Below are positions 1,973-6,277 of a stretch of DNA of 7,043 nucleotides, piece by piece. Position numbers and translations under genes: made by a program. Positions within the stretch are counted from its first letter, which is position 1; every line of letters starts with the position of its first letter. Below the pieces are notes generated by a model. It made no database searches. It was not told the origin of the DNA and saw only the letters and a program-made list of their open reading frames with translations. Origin of the DNA: a virus (taxonomy: Duplodnaviria > Heunggongvirae > Uroviricota > Caudoviricetes); IMG/VR virus record IMGVR_UViG_2651869755_000013. The stretch is one strand, 5' to 3'.

Positions 1973-2175
1973 AACCTCACTCCCAGCGGACGACGGCGAC
2001 GTCGGGTTGTCCCCAGTACCGACTCCGCATCATTGATCGCCCGGTTAAGCTCATCCAGAGAAGCCTCCGTATATTCAATTCTGCGACCATCTTTCTGGAC
2101 AGACACCACCCGTTTACCGGTTAATAAATCAAGGCGCGCCTGACGCAGCGCCTGCAGTTCAGCGACTGTAACCAT
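1969..2175 (-). CDS. W: Head-tail joining / head completion protein (lambda gpW-like), 68 aa
   Basis: A 68-aa ORF between terminase large subunit and portal, in the same position and of the same size as lambda W, with a GKRVxxVQKDGRR motif and Arg-rich C-terminus. SD GGAGGAG lies upstream of the ATG at 2175. It overlaps the A 3' end by 17 nt and the B start by 4 nt. Confidence 0.85.
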   Translation of the reverse strand: MVTVAELQALRQARLDLLTGKRVVSVQKDGRRIEYTEASLDELNRAINDAESVLGTTRRRRRPLGVRL

Positions 2176-4087
2176 TCACTCCTCCGGACAGCTTCGCTGC
2201 CAGTTCTTTAAGGGTTGGCCGGGTCGTCTCTTCTTCCCGGGATTTTGCCAGTACAGCCAGATCAAGCTGCCAGCGTTGCACGGACACACGTAATGCCGCA
2301 TAGGCATACACCAGGCAGTCCAGCGCTTCGTTACGCCGCTTTTTGTTATCCCACAGCAGACGCATCTTTCCTTTTTCCCACTTCTCCACAAGCTCTTCCG
2401 CGACCAGTTGCTGCGCCTCTGTCTGCGAAAAAATCTCCGGATCATCAGGAAAACGGATGGCATACGACGTGGCTTCATCCGCAGGAGTGGGATCGGCTTT
2501 CATACGGGCATAGAGAATTTCTTTTGCGGTGTCCGTCCCCACTTCACACAGATACACGCCCCGCTGATTGCGGGTTTTCGGCATGGTGATCACCGGCTTG
2601 CCATAGACAGATGCGCCTTTTACCGGCAGCACCCGGAAAACACCGTGTTTTTTTGACCTCTGATAGACAATTTCACCATCGATCCCCCCGGTGTCCCAGC
2701 AGACACGGGAAATGGTCATTTCGGTTCCGTCTGCATGGCAGTATTTTTTGTTGATCGCCGCATCCACACGTAACAGCGTCTCTTCCTCATCGGGACGGCC
2801 CATAATGATGATTTTATCCACCAGAAAAGCTTCCTCTCCCGGTGCCCATCCCCAGACATACATCTCAAAACGGTTTCGCTGCGAGTCAATGCCCGCCGTC
2901 AGATAAACCACCCGGGCTGGCACCGCCGCCGTGTAATGCACGACCTTATCCATCAGTACCTGGTGATCGAGTTTTTCGCCCACGGCCTCTTCCCAGGTCT
3001 CGCCCAGCGTGGTGTTCACAAAGGTTTTCAGGCCGTTGGGATCTTTCAGTGCATCCAGCCAGTCATAGACTATCTGTACCCAGGTGGTGAACGGACTGTA
3101 CGCCGTCCAGATATGGAACGTGATGGAGCGCGGCGGCGGAATTTCATTATCCGCGGCGCTGAAAAACGTCAGACCGTCACGGGTCCACATCCCCGTGTTT
3201 TCACAGATCCACCGCCCGTTGCTCTGGTCAAGCTCAGACTGATGGATCACGCAGCCATGATGTTCACAGAGGTAGAAAACGCTTTCGGGGCTGTCCTTCT
3301 CCCATTTAAGGCCAAAAGGCGTGGATTCATCGCCAAATTTCAGATACTGCTCCTCCCCACAGTGTGGGCAGGGCACATAAAAACGCATGAAATGCGCCGA
3401 CTCGTTGGCCGCTTTTTCGATCTGGCAGGTGCCTTTGATTTTAGGCGTCGAGCCGCGAATGGATTTGGGCCATACAGAGCCCTCAATACGTTTATCCCCA
3501 AGCAGGGTTGGCGACCCCTCTTTTTCGACATCCGGTTCGAACGAGGAAAGTTCGTCATAGCAGACCACGTCCACGGATTTTTCACGGTAGTTTTTAGCGG
3601 CAGCCCCGCCCAGGCACCAGAAGCCCACGCCCGATGAAAAACGTTTCAGCGTGAGGGTATTATCACGATGTTTACGCCCAAACCACGGTGCAAGATCGAG
3701 TAAAACCGGCACATCCCTGATCGTGGGTTCCACATGAGATTTCATAAAATCTTCAGCAGCAGAATCCGTGGGCTGGAAAAGAAGGCTGTTGCGTGATTTA
3801 TGCTCAATAAAATAAGCCTCCACTCCCAGCAACATCTTTGTATAACCAACACGGGCAGATTTAATCAGATTAACAGTGCGGATCCGGTCATTCCCCATGC
3901 TGTTCATGATGGCAACCTGAAACGGCAGTGTTTCCCACCGCCCCGGGGTGTAAGATGACTCTTTCGGAAGGTAATAATGTCGATCTGCCCACTGAACTGT
4001 CGTCAGAGGGACAGGAATTTTTAGCGCAAGGAGGCCGGTTGCTATCGCTCCTGCAGAATTAGCCGCCCTCAGTTCGTCTGAAATCAT
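2159..4087 (-). CDS. A: Terminase large subunit (lambda gpA-like), about 642 aa
   Basis: Strong lambda gpA similarity from [27 protein letters not shown] through the ATPase and nuclease regions ([74 protein letters not shown]). I place the start at ATG 4087 ([10 protein letters not shown]...), which has an AGGTGG SD 4 nt upstream and gives a 29-nt overlap with Nu1, close to the 26-nt overlap in lambda. The track's longer ORF to 4129 has no SD. Confidence 0.95.
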
Positions 4088-4607
4088 CAATCCACCTGCG
4101 CACATTCTCACCGGCTTCAGAAGCCACATCGGATGCTTTCGCGATTTCAGTTTTCACAGCATCAAGATGTACGGGTGATATATCAGGGTATTTACGCTGC
4201 AGTGTCTGAGGGACACGGACAAGGATCCCTGATATATTCTGTGCCACTCGCTGAAAGATGTAGGTAAATAACTCCGTCTCGAGGACAAGGCCTTCCTCAC
4301 GAGCATTTTTCAGCTCCTGTGCATCGGCCTGTGCCTTCGTCAGTCGGTAACGTTCGTAATCAATGGTGCAGGGCTGAAGGTCTGATTCGCTGGCAGCCCT
4401 CAAATCCTCGATCTCTTTACGGAGTTTTTCGTTTTCAATATCAGCTTCCCTCTGCGCATACCACTGAATGGCAGCAGTTGTATCAAAAACTGATTCAGTC
4501 CCTTTCCCTCCACCAGAAACTAGTGGTAACCCCTGACTCTGCCAGGCGGTGATGGTCCTGACATCAACGCCAAAAATATCGGCCAGTTTTTTCTTATTGA
4601 CGTTCAT
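4059..4607 (-). CDS. nu1: Terminase small subunit (lambda gpNu1-like), 182 aa
   Basis: The translation ([29 protein letters not shown]...GGGKG...[48 protein letters not shown]) matches lambda Nu1, including the N-terminal wHTH region and the ATP-binding segment. A GGGGGAG SD precedes the ATG at 4607. It lies about 170 bp from cosN, as in lambda. Confidence 0.92.
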
Positions 4608-4624
4608 ACACTCCCCCGGGAACC

Positions 4625-4745
4625 AGAAAGGATCTGAAAATGGCGTTTTCTAACAAAAACAGCCTTTGTCAGATCCTTTTATATTTTTAAAATTCTATTG
4701 ATAATCAATCAGTTAAAAAGAAGAAGAACGGATCTGATTTTTCCC
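4625..4745 (-). other. cosB-like region: three copies of a GGATCTGA motif (R1 4630-4637, R2 inverted 4669-4676, R3 4730-4737) with an IHF-consensus site (4703-4715) between R2 and R3
   Basis: The repeats are visible directly: GGATCTGA at 4630-4637 and 4730-4737, and TCAGATCC at 4669-4676. AATCAATCAGTTA at 4703-4715 fits the IHF consensus WATCAANNNNTTR. The arrangement (R3 and R1 direct, R2 inverted, IHF site between R3 and R2, all between cosN and Nu1) mirrors lambda cosB. Confidence 0.6.
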
Positions 4746-4776: not shown

Positions 4777-4788
4777 AGGTCGCCGCCC
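4777..4788 (-). other. cosN: 12-nt cohesive-end sequence (minus strand GGGCGGCGACCT), the terminase nicking site; cosQ-like flank at about 4789-4823
   Basis: The reverse complement of 4765-4800 reads CGACCGGTTACGGGGCGGCGACCTCGCGGGTTTTCGCT. This contains the exact lambda left cohesive end GGGCGGCGACCT followed by CGCGGGTTTTCGCTATTTATGAAAATTTT, as at the lambda left end, and is preceded by ...GGTTACG as at the lambda right end. Confidence 0.85.
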
Positions 4789-4823
4789 CGTAACCGGTCG
4801 GATCGCCGGAAAGGACCCACGAA

Positions 4824-4840
4824 ATGATAATTATTATCAT
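4824..4840. promoter_or_regulatory. Perfect 17-bp palindrome ATGATAATTATTATCAT; its core TGATAATTATTATCA matches the Fur-box 7-1-7 consensus TGATAATnATTATCA
   Basis: The 8-1-8 palindrome was verified base by base. It lies about 35 bp beyond cosN on the right-end side of the phage and about 155 bp upstream of the plus-strand RHH ORF. The TGATAA/TTATCA motif recurs nearby (4852-4857, 4956-4961). Confidence 0.35.
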
Positions 4841-4994
4841 CTATATAAGGTTTATCACAACATGTGTGTACGCCATCAAACCACGAGAAATAATCAATTA
4901 TGACGCAGGTATCGTATTAATTGATCTGCGTCAAATTAACGTAAAAGCAACTTCAGATAATACAAATCAGCAACACTGAATATGGGGAAACATT

Positions 4995-5180
4995 ATGTCA
5001 TCAAAGAACAGAACCCGCAGAACAACAACCCGCAACATCCGATTTCCAAACCAGATGATTGAACAAATTAACATCGCTCTTGATCTGAAAGGTTCAGGAA
5101 ACTTTTCAGCGTGGGTTATTGAAGCCTGCAGAAGAAGGCTGTCAACAGAGAGTTCGGGTATGAATTACATAATTAAGTAA
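4995..5180 (+). CDS. Small (61 aa) predicted ribbon-helix-helix (CopG/Arc/MetJ-like) DNA-binding protein, transcribed opposite to the phage late genes
   Basis: ATG at 4995 has a GGGGAA SD-like sequence 6-7 nt upstream. The sequence pattern is a basic N-terminus (SSKNRTRRTTTR), a short beta-strand-like NIRFP, then two helices (NQMIEQINIALDLKG, NFSAWVIEACRRRL), typical of RHH folds. Fold assignment is by eye only. Confidence 0.5.
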   Translation: MSSKNRTRRTTTRNIRFPNQMIEQINIALDLKGSGNFSAWVIEACRRRLSTESSGMNYIIK

Positions 5181-5803
5181 CATGGTGTTCACAGAACACG
5201 CAGTTACCGGACACATCAGTTTTCCATTCGCTCCCTGGCAGTACAGGCTTCCCCTCTGACGGGATAGCCTGAAAAAATAACACAGAAAATTATTTGTTAT
5301 AATTAATATAACTTACTCAAAAAAAAGCGACGAGAAAATCAGCATCAACGAACAATAAGCGCCAATACGTGATAACAAATGGCAGCCATATTTATCTGCA
5401 GTATAAGCAATGGACAGGATAACCACTCCAGAAACCGTCAGCATAAAATCCATTTGAACTTCCCCGGACAAAATCGACTCATCTAAAGATTTACAGCTCT
5501 TTTTATTATCAATATGTTAAAAGTAAAATAAACAGATGTTCAATAACACGAATACAAAAACGTGCTGAAATTCAATGAATCCATTTCTGTGTCATCAATT
5601 AATAGTGATAAACATCCGGCTTCTTCCACCATCGCACCGGACAGGCGACTATGAGGGGACAACGCCGCGCTCCGTTAACGCGGTAAACCCCGGTGTGTGT
5701 CGTTTTTGATTATCCCCGCACACTCGCGCAGAGGAGTCTCCCTGTCGGGCTGCGGTCTCTGTTAATGCGGGGATACGGCGACAATACCGCGCATCAGCAA
5801 AAC

Positions 5804-6277
5804 CTATTTCAGGCACTGAGTGCGGATATAGTCCTGCGCCCCTTCCAGCTGCTTCTGCATCAGCATCAACCGTTCTCTGAGAGTGAAATAATCCCGTTCA
5901 GCGGTGTCTGCCAGTTGGGGGCCGGTTGCATTATCCACGCGGGCGGTGCCGGTGGCTTCACGCACGGGACCTGGACAGGTGGCGTTGATACGCAGGCGCT
6001 TACGACCAGCGGCAACGTCAGCGCGAAGAGTTTCATTTTCAGCTCTCGCATCGGCTAATTCCCTCGAGTATTTTGCATCGAGCGCAGCAACATCGCGCTG
6101 GCGCACCTGCATATCAGTAATGGTTGCGTTCGCCAGCTTCAGTTCACTGGCTTTGTTATCGCGCTGCGCTTTGTAGGTAATCGCGTTATCACGGTAATGG
6201 TCTGTTGCCATCCACAGCGCTCCACAGGCCACCAGCAGAATAACGATAAACGCGGAAAGCATTCGGTTTATGTTCAC
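5804..6277 (-). CDS. Rz: Rz i-spanin (inner-membrane spanin subunit), 157 aa from GTG at 6277 (alternative ATG at 6262)
   Basis: The translation (...[69 protein letters not shown]...[41 protein letters not shown]) is highly similar to lambda Rz, with an N-terminal TM segment. The GTG start overlaps the stop of the upstream small ORF (GTGA). Confidence 0.9.
5866..6051 (-). CDS. Rz1: Rz1 o-spanin (outer-membrane lipoprotein subunit), 61 aa, embedded in the +1 frame of Rz
   Basis: Lies entirely inside Rz in another frame. Signal peptide with lipobox (LPLVVSAC) followed by a Pro-rich mature region ([26 protein letters not shown]), closely matching lambda Rz1. Confidence 0.85.

What the first reader, a model, noticed from the sequence alone, without database searches (positions are those of the whole stretch)
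4824..4840. Perfect Fur-box-like palindrome (TGATAATTATTATCA) next to cosQ and upstream of the RHH gene
A 17-bp perfect palindrome whose 15-bp core matches the published 7-1-7 Fur-box consensus exactly is unlikely by chance, even in AT-rich DNA. It could make a moron promoter iron-responsive, be the operator of the adjacent RHH protein, or be part of the cosQ/packaging-termination signal. Its position, directly beside the terminase cutting site, is unusual for a transcription-factor site.
Basis: partly seen in the sequence, partly recalled or inferred. Interest (0 to 1): 0.45.

Follow-up and report, generated by a model that had tools for sequence, protein, structure and literature searches.

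The report
Known Fur box beside lambda cosQ
The palindrome is a genuine binding site for Fur, the host iron-sensing repressor; it is the counterpart of the long-known "nohA/nohB" Fur sites of E. coli K-12, and comparison shows it is conserved right next to the DNA-packaging signal of many lambda-like phages, although its role there is still unclear.

Summary
ATGATAAT-T-ATTATCAT (4824-4840) is a perfect 8-1-8 palindrome, and its 15-bp core (4825-4839) matches the 7-1-7 Fur consensus exactly. It lies 6 bp from cosQ on a lambda-type right end.

It is not new. The sites at the same offset from cosN/cosQ in K-12 prophages Qin ("nohA") and DLP12 ("nohB") were captured by Fur titration assays (1994, 2000). 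The Qin site was gel-shifted with pure Fur (Chen 2007). In CFT073 a degenerate version at the same position has a Fur ChIP-exo peak, and genes on both sides rise in a fur deletion (Gao 2023).

My comparison adds three points:
- The box is present in lambda, phi80 and N15 and in 14 of 21 unrelated right-end modules.
- Within this module only the central "N" base varies.
- The box does not track the DUF3950 (YlcI/YnfO) gene.

It is absent from PICI cos sites that lambda and phi80 package, so packaging does not need it.

Caveat: the lambda-type perfect boxes show no ChIP-exo peak in MG1655, W3110 or BL21(DE3), and their neighbours are not derepressed in K-12.

Most likely it is a Fur operator over cos-proximal promoters. 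Interest is low to moderate.

The parts
4825..4839 (.). Core 7-1-7 Fur box TGATAATTATTATCA. The full 17-bp palindrome is 4824-4840.
   Evidence: Exact consensus match and the only site with 2 or fewer mismatches in the window. Perfect 8-1-8 inverted repeat. Same offset from cosN/cosQ as the K-12 Qin and DLP12 Fur sites and the lambda site. Arm positions are invariant, or at least 90% conserved at the two cosQ-proximal bases 4825-4826, and only the central base 4832 varies freely across 63 unique relatives.
4820..4845 (.). Extended array of GATAAT-like hexamers around the core (nAAAAT-GATAAT-n-ATTATC-ATTTAC in the class consensus). Probable footprint of two or more Fur dimers.
   Evidence: Conservation across one representative of each of 14 right-end classes extends from about -5 to +20 relative to the core. 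Chen 2007 report a second overlapping Fur site 6 bp to this side in Qin. The table was anchored on the best match, so conservation inside the core is partly circular.
4808..4818 (-). Invariant GGAAAGGACCC containing cosQ (AGGACCC, 4812-4818, read as GGGTCCT on the packaging strand).
   Evidence: Invariant in all lambda-type cos loci compared. Identification as cosQ rests on the lambda literature (7-bp, highly conserved) and on my recollection of the lambda sequence.
4777..4788 (-). cosN cohesive-end sequence (reverse complement of lambda GGGCGGCGACCT).
   Evidence: Sequence reading. Identical in lambda, Qin and DLP12 and in 120+ viral contigs.
4833..4860 (-). Sigma-70-like promoter match pointing toward cos and Nu1: -35 TTGTGA (4860-4855), 16-bp spacer, -10 GATAAT (4838-4833) inside the box.
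   Evidence: Consensus scan, 9 of 12 matches. Low specificity because the box itself looks like a -10 element. The -35 is not at a conserved distance in lambda, which has a 7-bp indel. phi80 has a comparable match by eye.
4059..4607 (-). Small terminase Nu1, first gene of the packaging/head operon. One possible target of Fur control.
   Evidence: Pfam Phage_Nu1, E 1.4e-85. In CFT073 the orthologous unit (TerL +1.34, a downstream gene +2.13 log2) is derepressed in a fur deletion.
4995..5180 (+). The other possible target, 163 bp from the box centre.
   Evidence: Pfam DUF3950, E 9e-19. RefSeq name YlcI/YnfO family. phrog_949, unknown function.

Best explanation
The palindrome is a high-affinity operator for the host ferric uptake regulator Fur. 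It sits at the extreme right end of a lambda-type prophage genome, 6 bp beyond cosQ.

With iron present, Fe2+-Fur dimers occupy the core 7-1-7 repeat and the flanking GATAAT-like hexamers (about 4820-4845). This blocks RNA polymerase at weak sigma-70 promoters that overlap or adjoin the box.

When iron is scarce, Fur leaves and low-level transcription starts from this spot. It runs leftward across cos into Nu1, the large terminase gene (lambda gene A) and the head genes, and/or rightward into the right-end accessory genes (here the DUF3950 gene).

What is shown:
- The sequence match.
- Orthology to sites that bind Fur in vitro and titrate it in vivo.
- In vivo occupancy and two-sided derepression at the same position in CFT073.
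- Selection on the arms of the palindrome.

What is inferred:
- That this particular copy is occupied in its host.
- Which promoter(s) it controls.
For: Sequence: exact 7-1-7 match, about 0.01 expected by chance at 2 or fewer mismatches.

Orthology: the K-12 sites at NC_000913.3 1,636,593-607 (Qin) and 580,594-608 (DLP12) lie at the same offset from cosN/cosQ. They equal Chen 2007's coordinates 1634624 and 579824 after the version shift.

Published binding: the nohA site scores 22.3 bits and was gel-shifted with 150 nM Fur. It was also recovered by in vivo Fur titration selection (Vassinova and Kozyrev 2000). The nohB site scores 25.3 bits, third strongest cluster in K-12, and is credited to the 1994 Fur titration paper.

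In vivo (Gao 2023): CFT073 ChIP-exo peak P53, 1,424,699-711, iron-replete. I mapped it onto TGATAATTATTCTCG next to GGGTCCTTTCC. The flanking units are in the CFT073 Fur regulon: C_RS26755 +2.95, C_RS07340 +2.33, TerL C_RS07355 +1.34, C_RS07370 +2.13 log2 in the fur deletion.

Selection: across 63 unique relatives of this module the arms are invariant and only the central N varies, while both flanks vary. A box with 3 or fewer mismatches follows cosQ in 14 of 21 unrelated downstream-sequence clusters, against about 0.5% of background windows. It is also present in lambda, phi80 (perfect) and N15.

Promoter: a -10 GATAAT inside the box with a -35 16 bp upstream on the minus strand.
Against: ChIP-exo lists no Fur peak at the lambda-type perfect boxes. 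This holds for MG1655 and W3110 (DLP12, Qin) and for BL21(DE3) (lambda DE3), which carry the same DUF3950-type module as this window.

In MG1655, nohD, nohQ, ydfO and ybcW do not change in the fur deletion. In W3110, ylcI, ynfO and nohD go down rather than up.

No convincing plus-strand promoter overlaps the box. The minus-strand match is weak and not conserved in lambda.

A Fur-controlled start into terminase genes has no obvious benefit.

The strand of the CFT073 'TU53' genes is inferred, because their locus tags are gone from the current annotation.
Confidence: 0.6

Rival explanations
1. The site binds Fur in a test tube and on multicopy plasmids, but in the chromosome of a lysogen it is largely unoccupied or without consequence, for example because nucleoid proteins cover the AT-rich prophage DNA. 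Its conservation would then reflect a role only in the free phage (replicating, packaged or injected DNA), or mere inheritance with the cos segment.
For: No ChIP-exo peak at five or six perfect lambda-type boxes in three strains, and no derepression in K-12. The positive evidence for those sites comes from plasmids or oligonucleotides.
Against: The CFT073 site, a weaker match, is occupied and regulatory. The arm-specific conservation with a free central base, and recurrence in 14 unrelated modules, indicate selection for dimer binding rather than drift. Missing peaks could be a thresholding or read-mapping effect.
Confidence: 0.17
2. The box is an accessory part of the cos architecture. Fur bound 3-8 bp upstream of cosQ is the last thing the translocating terminase meets before cosQ and cosN. 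It modulates termination or cos cleavage (as a brake or bend, like IHF at cosB), or it protects or marks the right DNA end, which enters the cell first.
For: The position next to cosQ is constant across lambda, phi80, N15 and 14 unrelated right-end modules. In at least 10 of these modules the nearest right-hand ORF in my scan runs in the late direction, so cos and Nu1 are the only constant neighbours. In L024-type relatives the deletion of the moron block stops exactly at the box edge. The phi80 record includes the box in its 'cosQ; aka R4 region' feature.
Against: Seven downstream clusters with intact cosN and cosQ have no box. The EcCICFT073 cos sites lack it, yet lambda and phi80 package them. 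The spacer to cosQ varies from 3 to 8 bp, so helical phasing is not kept. The Feiss-lab literature defines termination by cosQ (7 bp), cosN and I2 only.
Confidence: 0.12
3. The box works as a Fur sponge. When the phage genome replicates to a hundred or more copies, the high-affinity sites titrate Fur, exactly as in the Fur titration assay. This derepresses host iron uptake and related genes to the phage's benefit.
For: The orthologous fragments were isolated because, on multicopy plasmids, they titrate Fur in vivo. The site is among the strongest predicted in K-12. This role needs no adjacent target gene, which fits the varied neighbours.
Against: There is no direct evidence. From my own knowledge, Fur is abundant (thousands of molecules per cell), so one site per genome copy would titrate only part of it. 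This role does not explain the fixed position beside cosQ.
Confidence: 0.06
4. The palindrome is the operator of the adjacent DUF3950 ('RHH') protein.
For: It is a palindrome 163 bp upstream of the gene. Every locus with this gene next to cos has a box with 1 or fewer mismatches.
Against: The box occurs without the gene in many modules and in phi80 and N15. The PICI copy of the gene family has no such box. The sequence is the Fur consensus, and Fur binds it. A better-placed conserved block with inverted repeats lies 60-100 bp upstream of the gene.
Confidence: 0.03

Closest known systems
Fur sites 'nohA' (cryptic prophage Qin) and 'nohB/nohD' (DLP12) of E. coli K-12 (Stojiljkovic et al. 1994; Vassinova and Kozyrev 2000; Chen et al. 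2007)
   Same: Same position relative to cosN, cosQ, Nu1 (noh) and the YlcI/YnfO gene. Both arms of the 7-1-7 repeat are identical. The DLP12 15-mer is the reverse complement of the window's, so only the central base differs relative to cos.
   Different: This copy is in a different, apparently intact prophage whose Nu1 is only about 51% identical to lambda/K-12 noh proteins, and it has a 7-bp insertion just right of the box. The K-12 papers treat the site as 'upstream of nohA/nohB'. In what I could read, they do not note that it abuts cosQ or that lambda itself has it.
Fur ChIP-exo peak P53 in a lambda-like prophage of E. coli CFT073 (Gao et al. 2023, Fur pan-regulon)
   Same: Same place, 5 bp from cosQ on the right end of a lambda-type cos. 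Fur-bound under iron-replete conditions, with derepression of flanking units in a fur deletion.
   Different: The CFT073 box is degenerate (TGATAATTATTCTCG, 2 mismatches). Its right-end module is unrelated: a small secreted-protein ORF and a TonB-family lipoprotein gene rather than DUF3950.
Fur-repressed phage cargo promoters, e.g. the stx1 promoter of Shiga-toxin phages (from my own knowledge, not checked here)
   Same: A lambdoid prophage uses host Fur to make a lysogen-expressed gene respond to iron.
   Different: There the Fur box overlaps a defined toxin promoter far from cos. Here no promoter or target is established, and the site is tied to the packaging site.
IHF site I1 in lambda cosB
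   Same: A host DNA-binding protein site built into the cos region of lambda-like phages.
   Different: I1 lies on the other side of cosN and has a demonstrated role in terminase assembly. No packaging role is shown for the Fur box, and cos sites without it are packaged.

Membership tests
Fur box (Fe2+-Fur operator of Enterobacteria) | Match to the 7-1-7 inverted repeat TGATAATnATTATCA, or to the 19-bp consensus GATAATGATAATCATTATC | tested here: met
   14 of 14 specified bases match. 15 of 19 to the 19-mer in window orientation for this sequence (L012 is identical to the window).
Fur box (Fe2+-Fur operator of Enterobacteria) | Binding by purified Fur | not testable with these tools
   Published gel shift for the Qin orthologue, which has identical arms and central base G instead of T (Chen 2007; orthology shown).
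Fur box (Fe2+-Fur operator of Enterobacteria) | Occupancy by Fur in living cells | tested here: inconclusive
   From published data. Positive by Fur titration for Qin and DLP12 fragments on plasmids. Positive by ChIP-exo at the CFT073 site, mapped here. No peak called at the DLP12, Qin or lambda DE3 boxes in MG1655, W3110 or BL21(DE3).
Fur box (Fe2+-Fur operator of Enterobacteria) | Overlap with a promoter and Fur- or iron-dependent expression of the adjacent genes | tested here: inconclusive
   Weak minus-strand sigma-70 match with its -10 in the box. Derepression on both sides in CFT073. None in MG1655, and decreases in W3110.
Fur box (Fe2+-Fur operator of Enterobacteria) | Evolutionary constraint fitting a dimer site: arms conserved, central base free | tested here: met
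   63 unique relatives: arms invariant, central position variable, flanks variable.
lambda cos termination signal (cosQ) | Present at every functional lambda-type cos at fixed spacing from cosN | tested here: not met
   GGAAAGGACCC is invariant but the box is not. It is absent from 7 of 21 downstream clusters and from both EcCICFT073 cos sites, which are packaged by lambda and phi80. The spacer to cosQ varies from 3 to 8 bp.
Autoregulatory operator of the neighbouring DUF3950/'RHH' gene | Co-occurrence of operator and regulator gene | tested here: not met
   The box occurs without the gene in phi80, N15 and many modules. A family member in the PICI has no box.

The most novel reading that the evidence does not exclude
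The Fur box is a conserved functional subsite of the right end of lambda-type genomes. Host Fur bound a few base pairs before cosQ would act on the DNA itself rather than on a cargo gene. It could tune packaging termination or cos cutting, guard the first-injected DNA end, or couple expression of the terminase operon to iron. This would make iron status a hidden input to lambda-family DNA packaging that decades of cos genetics have missed.
Probability: 0.12. Interest if true: 0.7.

Novelty: already known. Interest (0 to 1): 0.3.

Why it matters
As a Fur site it adds nothing new. The orthologous K-12 sites have been in the Fur literature since 1994-2007, and one relative is in a 2023 ChIP-exo data set.

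Two things may be worth a specialist's attention. First, one of the strongest Fur boxes in E. coli genomes is also carried by phage lambda, by phi80 and N15, and by most lambda-type right ends. It always sits immediately beside cosQ, and it persists through many exchanges of the neighbouring genes. In the papers I could search, this was not discussed.

Second, these perfect boxes appear unoccupied in K-12 and BL21(DE3) ChIP-exo, while a degenerate one in CFT073 is bound and regulatory.

If the site links iron to prophage gene expression or to packaging, simple lambda genetics could test it. If not, it is a cautionary example of a perfect consensus site with no clear output.

Tried and rejected
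(1) Chance occurrence in AT-rich DNA: rejected.

(2) Operator of the DUF3950 gene: rejected on distribution.

(3) Obligatory cos subsite: rejected.

(4) A conserved plus-strand promoter using the TTTACA-like hexamer just right of the box as a -35. No consistent -10 follows at 16-18 bp in the class representatives. The hexamer is better read as a further Fur half-site.

(5) The 51-codon ORF that starts at the ATG inside the palindrome (4824-4979). It has no family hit. Lambda has a 7-bp indel inside it, so I treat it as spurious.

(6) A known RNA in the conserved non-coding block: no Rfam match.

(7) Other strain-specific Fur peaks as further cos-adjacent cases. The Sakai peaks are inside tape-measure genes. 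The 042 peak is near a different terminase type and has no strong box.

(8) Things that led nowhere:
- Literature searches for cosQ with Fur, or for Fur box with terminase, found nothing relevant.
- Vassinova 2000 and Panina 2001 are not held.
- The BL21 and CFT073 expression sheets were truncated in the stored supplement.
- The genome-contig scan with Nu1 gave only 8 loci.
- A box-less right-end class had no match among cultured phages.

Full report
**What is in the window**

The window is a lambda-type prophage read on the reverse strand. On the minus strand lie the portal gene (380-1972), the lambda W-like head-tail joining gene (1969-2175), the large terminase gene (2159-4129) and Nu1 (4059-4607; Pfam Phage_Nu1, E 1.4e-85).

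To the right of Nu1 lie, in order:
- the cosB repeats;
- the cohesive-end sequence AGGTCGCCGCCC (4777-4788), the reverse complement of lambda's GGGCGGCGACCT;
- the invariant GGAAAGGACCC (4808-4818), which contains cosQ (AGGACCC, 4812-4818);
- a 6-bp spacer ACGAAA;
- the palindrome ATGATAAT-T-ATTATCAT (4824-4840).

Further right, a DUF3950 / YlcI-YnfO-family gene lies on the plus strand (4995-5180). Rz and Rz1 lie on the minus strand (5804-6277, 5866-6051).

**Check of the observation**

The arms 4824-4831 and 4833-4840 are 100% complementary. The core 4825-4839 matches TGATAATnATTATCA without mismatch. It is the only site in the window with 2 or fewer mismatches, against an expectation of 0.01.

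**It is an orthologue of known Fur sites**

The 601 bp around the site are 100% identical in many E. coli chromosomes. RefSeq names the two flanking genes 'terminase small subunit' and 'YlcI/YnfO family protein'. ylcI-nohD in DLP12 and ynfO-nohA in Qin are the K-12 counterparts.

In both K-12 prophages, and in lambda itself, a perfect 7-1-7 box lies at the same offset from cosN and cosQ:
- Qin and lambda: TGATAATGATTATCA
- DLP12: TGATAATAATTATCA in the same orientation

Their coordinates (NC_000913.3 1,636,593-607 and 580,594-608) equal the 'nohA' site (1634624) and 'nohB' site (579824) of Chen et al. 2007, once the known insertions between genome versions are added.

That paper (PMC2189734) reports the following:
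- The nohA fragment was selected in vivo for Fur binding by Vassinova and Kozyrev (2000).
- The site scores 22.3 bits, with a second overlapping site 6 bp away.
- An oligonucleotide carrying it is shifted by 150 nM Fur.
- nohB scores 25.3 bits, the third strongest cluster in the genome. It is credited to the original Fur titration paper of Stojiljkovic, Baumler and Hantke 1994.

**In vivo data (Gao et al. 2023, PMC10164565)**

This paper reports Fur ChIP-exo and fur-deletion RNA-seq in nine strains.

In CFT073, peak P53 (NC_004431.1 1,424,699-711, iron-replete) is listed between a two-gene unit and a unit that starts with the small terminase gene. I fetched that DNA. The peak falls on gtaagTGATAATTATTCTCGttttcGGGTCCTTTCC. 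That is a 2-mismatch version of the box, 5 bp from cosQ.

Genes from both units are in the CFT073-specific Fur regulon and rise in the fur deletion:
- C_RS26755: +2.95 log2
- C_RS07340: +2.33 log2
- TerL C_RS07355: +1.34 log2
- C_RS07370: +2.13 log2

This is direct evidence that a box at this position can be an occupied, two-sided Fur operator in a lysogen.

The data for the lambda-type perfect boxes are negative:
- The MG1655 list has no peak between 562,461 and 611,728, or between 1,608,737 and 1,655,538.
- The W3110 list has none between 562,538 and 594,929, or between 1,623,448 and 1,658,239.
- BL21(DE3) has none between 746,049 and 825,653. The lambda DE3 box, between ECD_RS03870 and ECD_RS03875 at about 768.4 kb, lies in that interval.

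Expression agrees with this. In MG1655, nohD, nohQ, ydfO and ybcW are unchanged. In W3110, ylcI, ynfO, nohD, ybcV, ybcW and ydfO fall in the fur deletion rather than rise, while entC rises by 6-10 log2. This discrepancy is unexplained. It is the main reason I do not rate the regulatory explanation higher.

**Comparative anatomy**

I collected lambda-type cos loci in two ways. One used Nu1 similarity (80 viral contigs and 8 genomes).

cosN and GGAAAGGACCC are invariant, and homology can break immediately to the right of cosQ. In the cosN-based sample, 116 of 129 cores are followed by cosQ. In the 30 bp after cosQ, the best 7-1-7 match had 0 mismatches in 62 cases, 1 in 10, 2 in 16, and none at 2 or fewer in 28.

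I clustered 99 unique sequences by what lies 35-200 bp beyond cosQ, which gave 21 clusters. Fourteen contain a box with 3 or fewer mismatches. The other seven have 6-9 mismatches, which is the background level. About 0.5% of random windows from the same loci reach 3 or fewer. The distribution is bimodal: the box is either present or absent.

Cultured phages agree. phi80 has the identical perfect 15-mer 5 bp from cosQ, and its record includes it in a 'cosQ; aka R4 region' feature. N15 has CGATAACTATTATCG, overlapping the stop codon of gp59.

Across one representative per class, the conserved footprint runs from about -5 to +20. It reads nAAAAT-GATAAT-n-ATTATC-ATTTAC, an array of Fur-type hexamers. 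That table is anchored on the best match, so it is partly circular.

An unbiased check used 63 unique relatives of this window's own module, chosen only by the presence of the DUF3950 gene. It shows that the arms are invariant, that the central base is the only freely varying column, and that both flanks vary. This is the pattern expected for selection on a dimer-binding palindrome.

**What the box travels with**

The box does not travel with the DUF3950 gene. Every cos-adjacent copy of that gene has a box. However, the box also occurs in phi80, in N15 and in many modules that lack the gene.

In at least 10 of 14 box-bearing classes, the nearest right-hand ORF found by my ORF scan (not a gene caller) is on the late strand and ends 40-300 bp from the box.

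In L024-type relatives the whole accessory block (window 4841-5614) is missing, and the left breakpoint is exactly the right edge of the box.

The PICI EcCICFT073 carries a member of the YlcI/YnfO family 7 kb from its cos sites, with no Fur-like box upstream.

**The box is not an obligatory cos element**

Seven clusters with intact cosN and cosQ lack the box. The two inverted cos cores of EcCICFT073 (NC_004431.1 1,387,569 and 1,388,297) also lack it. Those cores match the viral contigs in which I had noticed two inverted cosN cores. Published work shows these cos sites support packaging by lambda and phi80 (PMC6092414 and PMC6739421).

The spacer between cosQ and the box varies from 3 to 8 bp. 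The Feiss-lab description of termination needs only cosQ (7 bp), cosN and I2 (PMC4669245).

**Mechanism**

The best-supported reading is a Fur operator over weak cos-proximal promoters.

In the window, a sigma-70-like match on the minus strand has its -10 inside the box and points toward cos and Nu1 (TTGTGA, 16 bp, GATAAT). phi80 has a comparable match by eye. Such matches are of low specificity, because the box itself looks like a -10 element. The -35 is not at a conserved distance in lambda.

No convincing plus-strand promoter overlaps the box. A strongly conserved non-coding block with inverted repeats (4891-4994) is a better candidate for the DUF3950 gene's own control region.

I put 0.6 on 'Fur operator with regulatory output'. 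I am about 90% confident that Fur binds this DNA in vitro. I am much less sure which transcript it controls here.

The rivals are:
- a site that is silent in lysogens (0.17);
- an accessory role in cos architecture or end biology (0.12);
- Fur titration by replicating genomes (0.06);
- an operator for the DUF3950 protein (0.03).

**Novelty and score**

The element is already known as the nohA/nohB Fur site, and this is another copy.

In the papers I could search, nobody has discussed the following: that lambda, phi80 and N15 carry the site; that it always abuts cosQ; and that it persists through exchanges of the neighbouring genes. Searches for cosQ with Fur, and for Fur box with terminase, found nothing relevant. 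The library is incomplete, and two key older papers are not held.

Interest is 0.3. The finding is real and tidy, mostly explained by prior work, with a modest open question about why the site sits where it does.

Noticed in passing
L003 1741-1935 (lambda, PV340536.1 20390-20584); also NC_012971.2 768082-768276 in lambda DE3: Phage lambda itself encodes a 64-aa YlcI/YnfO (DUF3950) ORF just inside its right end, on the strand opposite to late transcription. It is about 90% identical to the window's gene. As far as I recall, it is absent from the classic lambda gene list.
   Followed up: partly
window 4891-4994: A non-coding block upstream of the DUF3950 gene is as conserved as coding sequence across 63 relatives. 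It contains inverted repeats (4893-4905/4913-4925 and 4901-4908/4926-4933). It may be that gene's promoter, operator or leader. There is no Rfam match.
   Followed up: partly
window 4620-4737: The cosB region has its own repeat set built on GGATCTGA (direct copies at 4620-4637 and 4720-4737; inverted arms at 4627-4649/4657-4679). The Nu1 protein is only about 51% identical to lambda/K-12 noh proteins. Together these suggest a packaging specificity different from lambda's.
   Followed up: no
window 4841-5614; compare L024, L088, L121: The accessory block is missing as a unit in close relatives. It comprises the DUF3950 gene, an AT-rich stretch, and a 52-codon hydrophobic ORF at 5313-5471 on the minus strand. 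The breakpoints fall at the right edge of the Fur box and at about 5615, just before the Rz end.
   Followed up: partly
L093, L100, L103, L118, L129, L164; NC_004431.1 1,387,569 and 1,388,297 (L219): Some viral contigs carry two lambda-type cosN+cosQ cores in inverted orientation, 500-870 bp apart. They match the cos1/cos2 pair of the phage-inducible island EcCICFT073, and neither core has a Fur box. The island's RefSeq annotation lists a YlcI/YnfO-family gene, a major capsid protein gene and a head decoration protein gene.
   Followed up: yes
L212 1-281 (NC_004431.1 1423654-1423980); L032/L036 right ends: Several right-end modules carry a small TonB-family (C-terminal domain) lipoprotein gene close to cos. 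In CFT073 it lies about 700 bp from the Fur-bound box and downstream of iss. A phage-borne TonB-like gene beside a Fur site may be worth a look.
   Followed up: no
NC_002695.2 915,639-651 and 1,960,053-065 (L213, L214): Gao 2023 list Fur ChIP-exo peaks inside the tape-measure genes of the lambda-like prophages Sp3 and Sp10 of O157:H7 Sakai. Tail genes in those units rise in the fur deletion (ECs0835 +3.86, ECs1988 +2.59).
   Followed up: partly
NC_017626.1 2,252,594-606 (L215 745-757): In strain 042 a Fur ChIP-exo peak lies in the gap between an HNH endonuclease gene and a P27-family small terminase gene of a different phage type. The HNH gene rises +2.39 in the fur deletion. I saw no strong Fur box there.
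   Followed up: partly
K-12 DLP12/Qin and BL21(DE3) lambda DE3 boxes (NC_000913.3 580,594-608 and 1,636,593-607; NC_012971.2 about 768.43 kb): Two of the ten strongest predicted Fur clusters in Chen 2007's K-12 table (DLP12 25.3 bits, Qin 22.3 bits), and the identical lambda DE3 box in BL21(DE3), have no ChIP-exo peak in the three strains examined. A weaker version in CFT073 does. The reason is unknown; it could be occlusion, thresholds or read mapping.
   Followed up: partly
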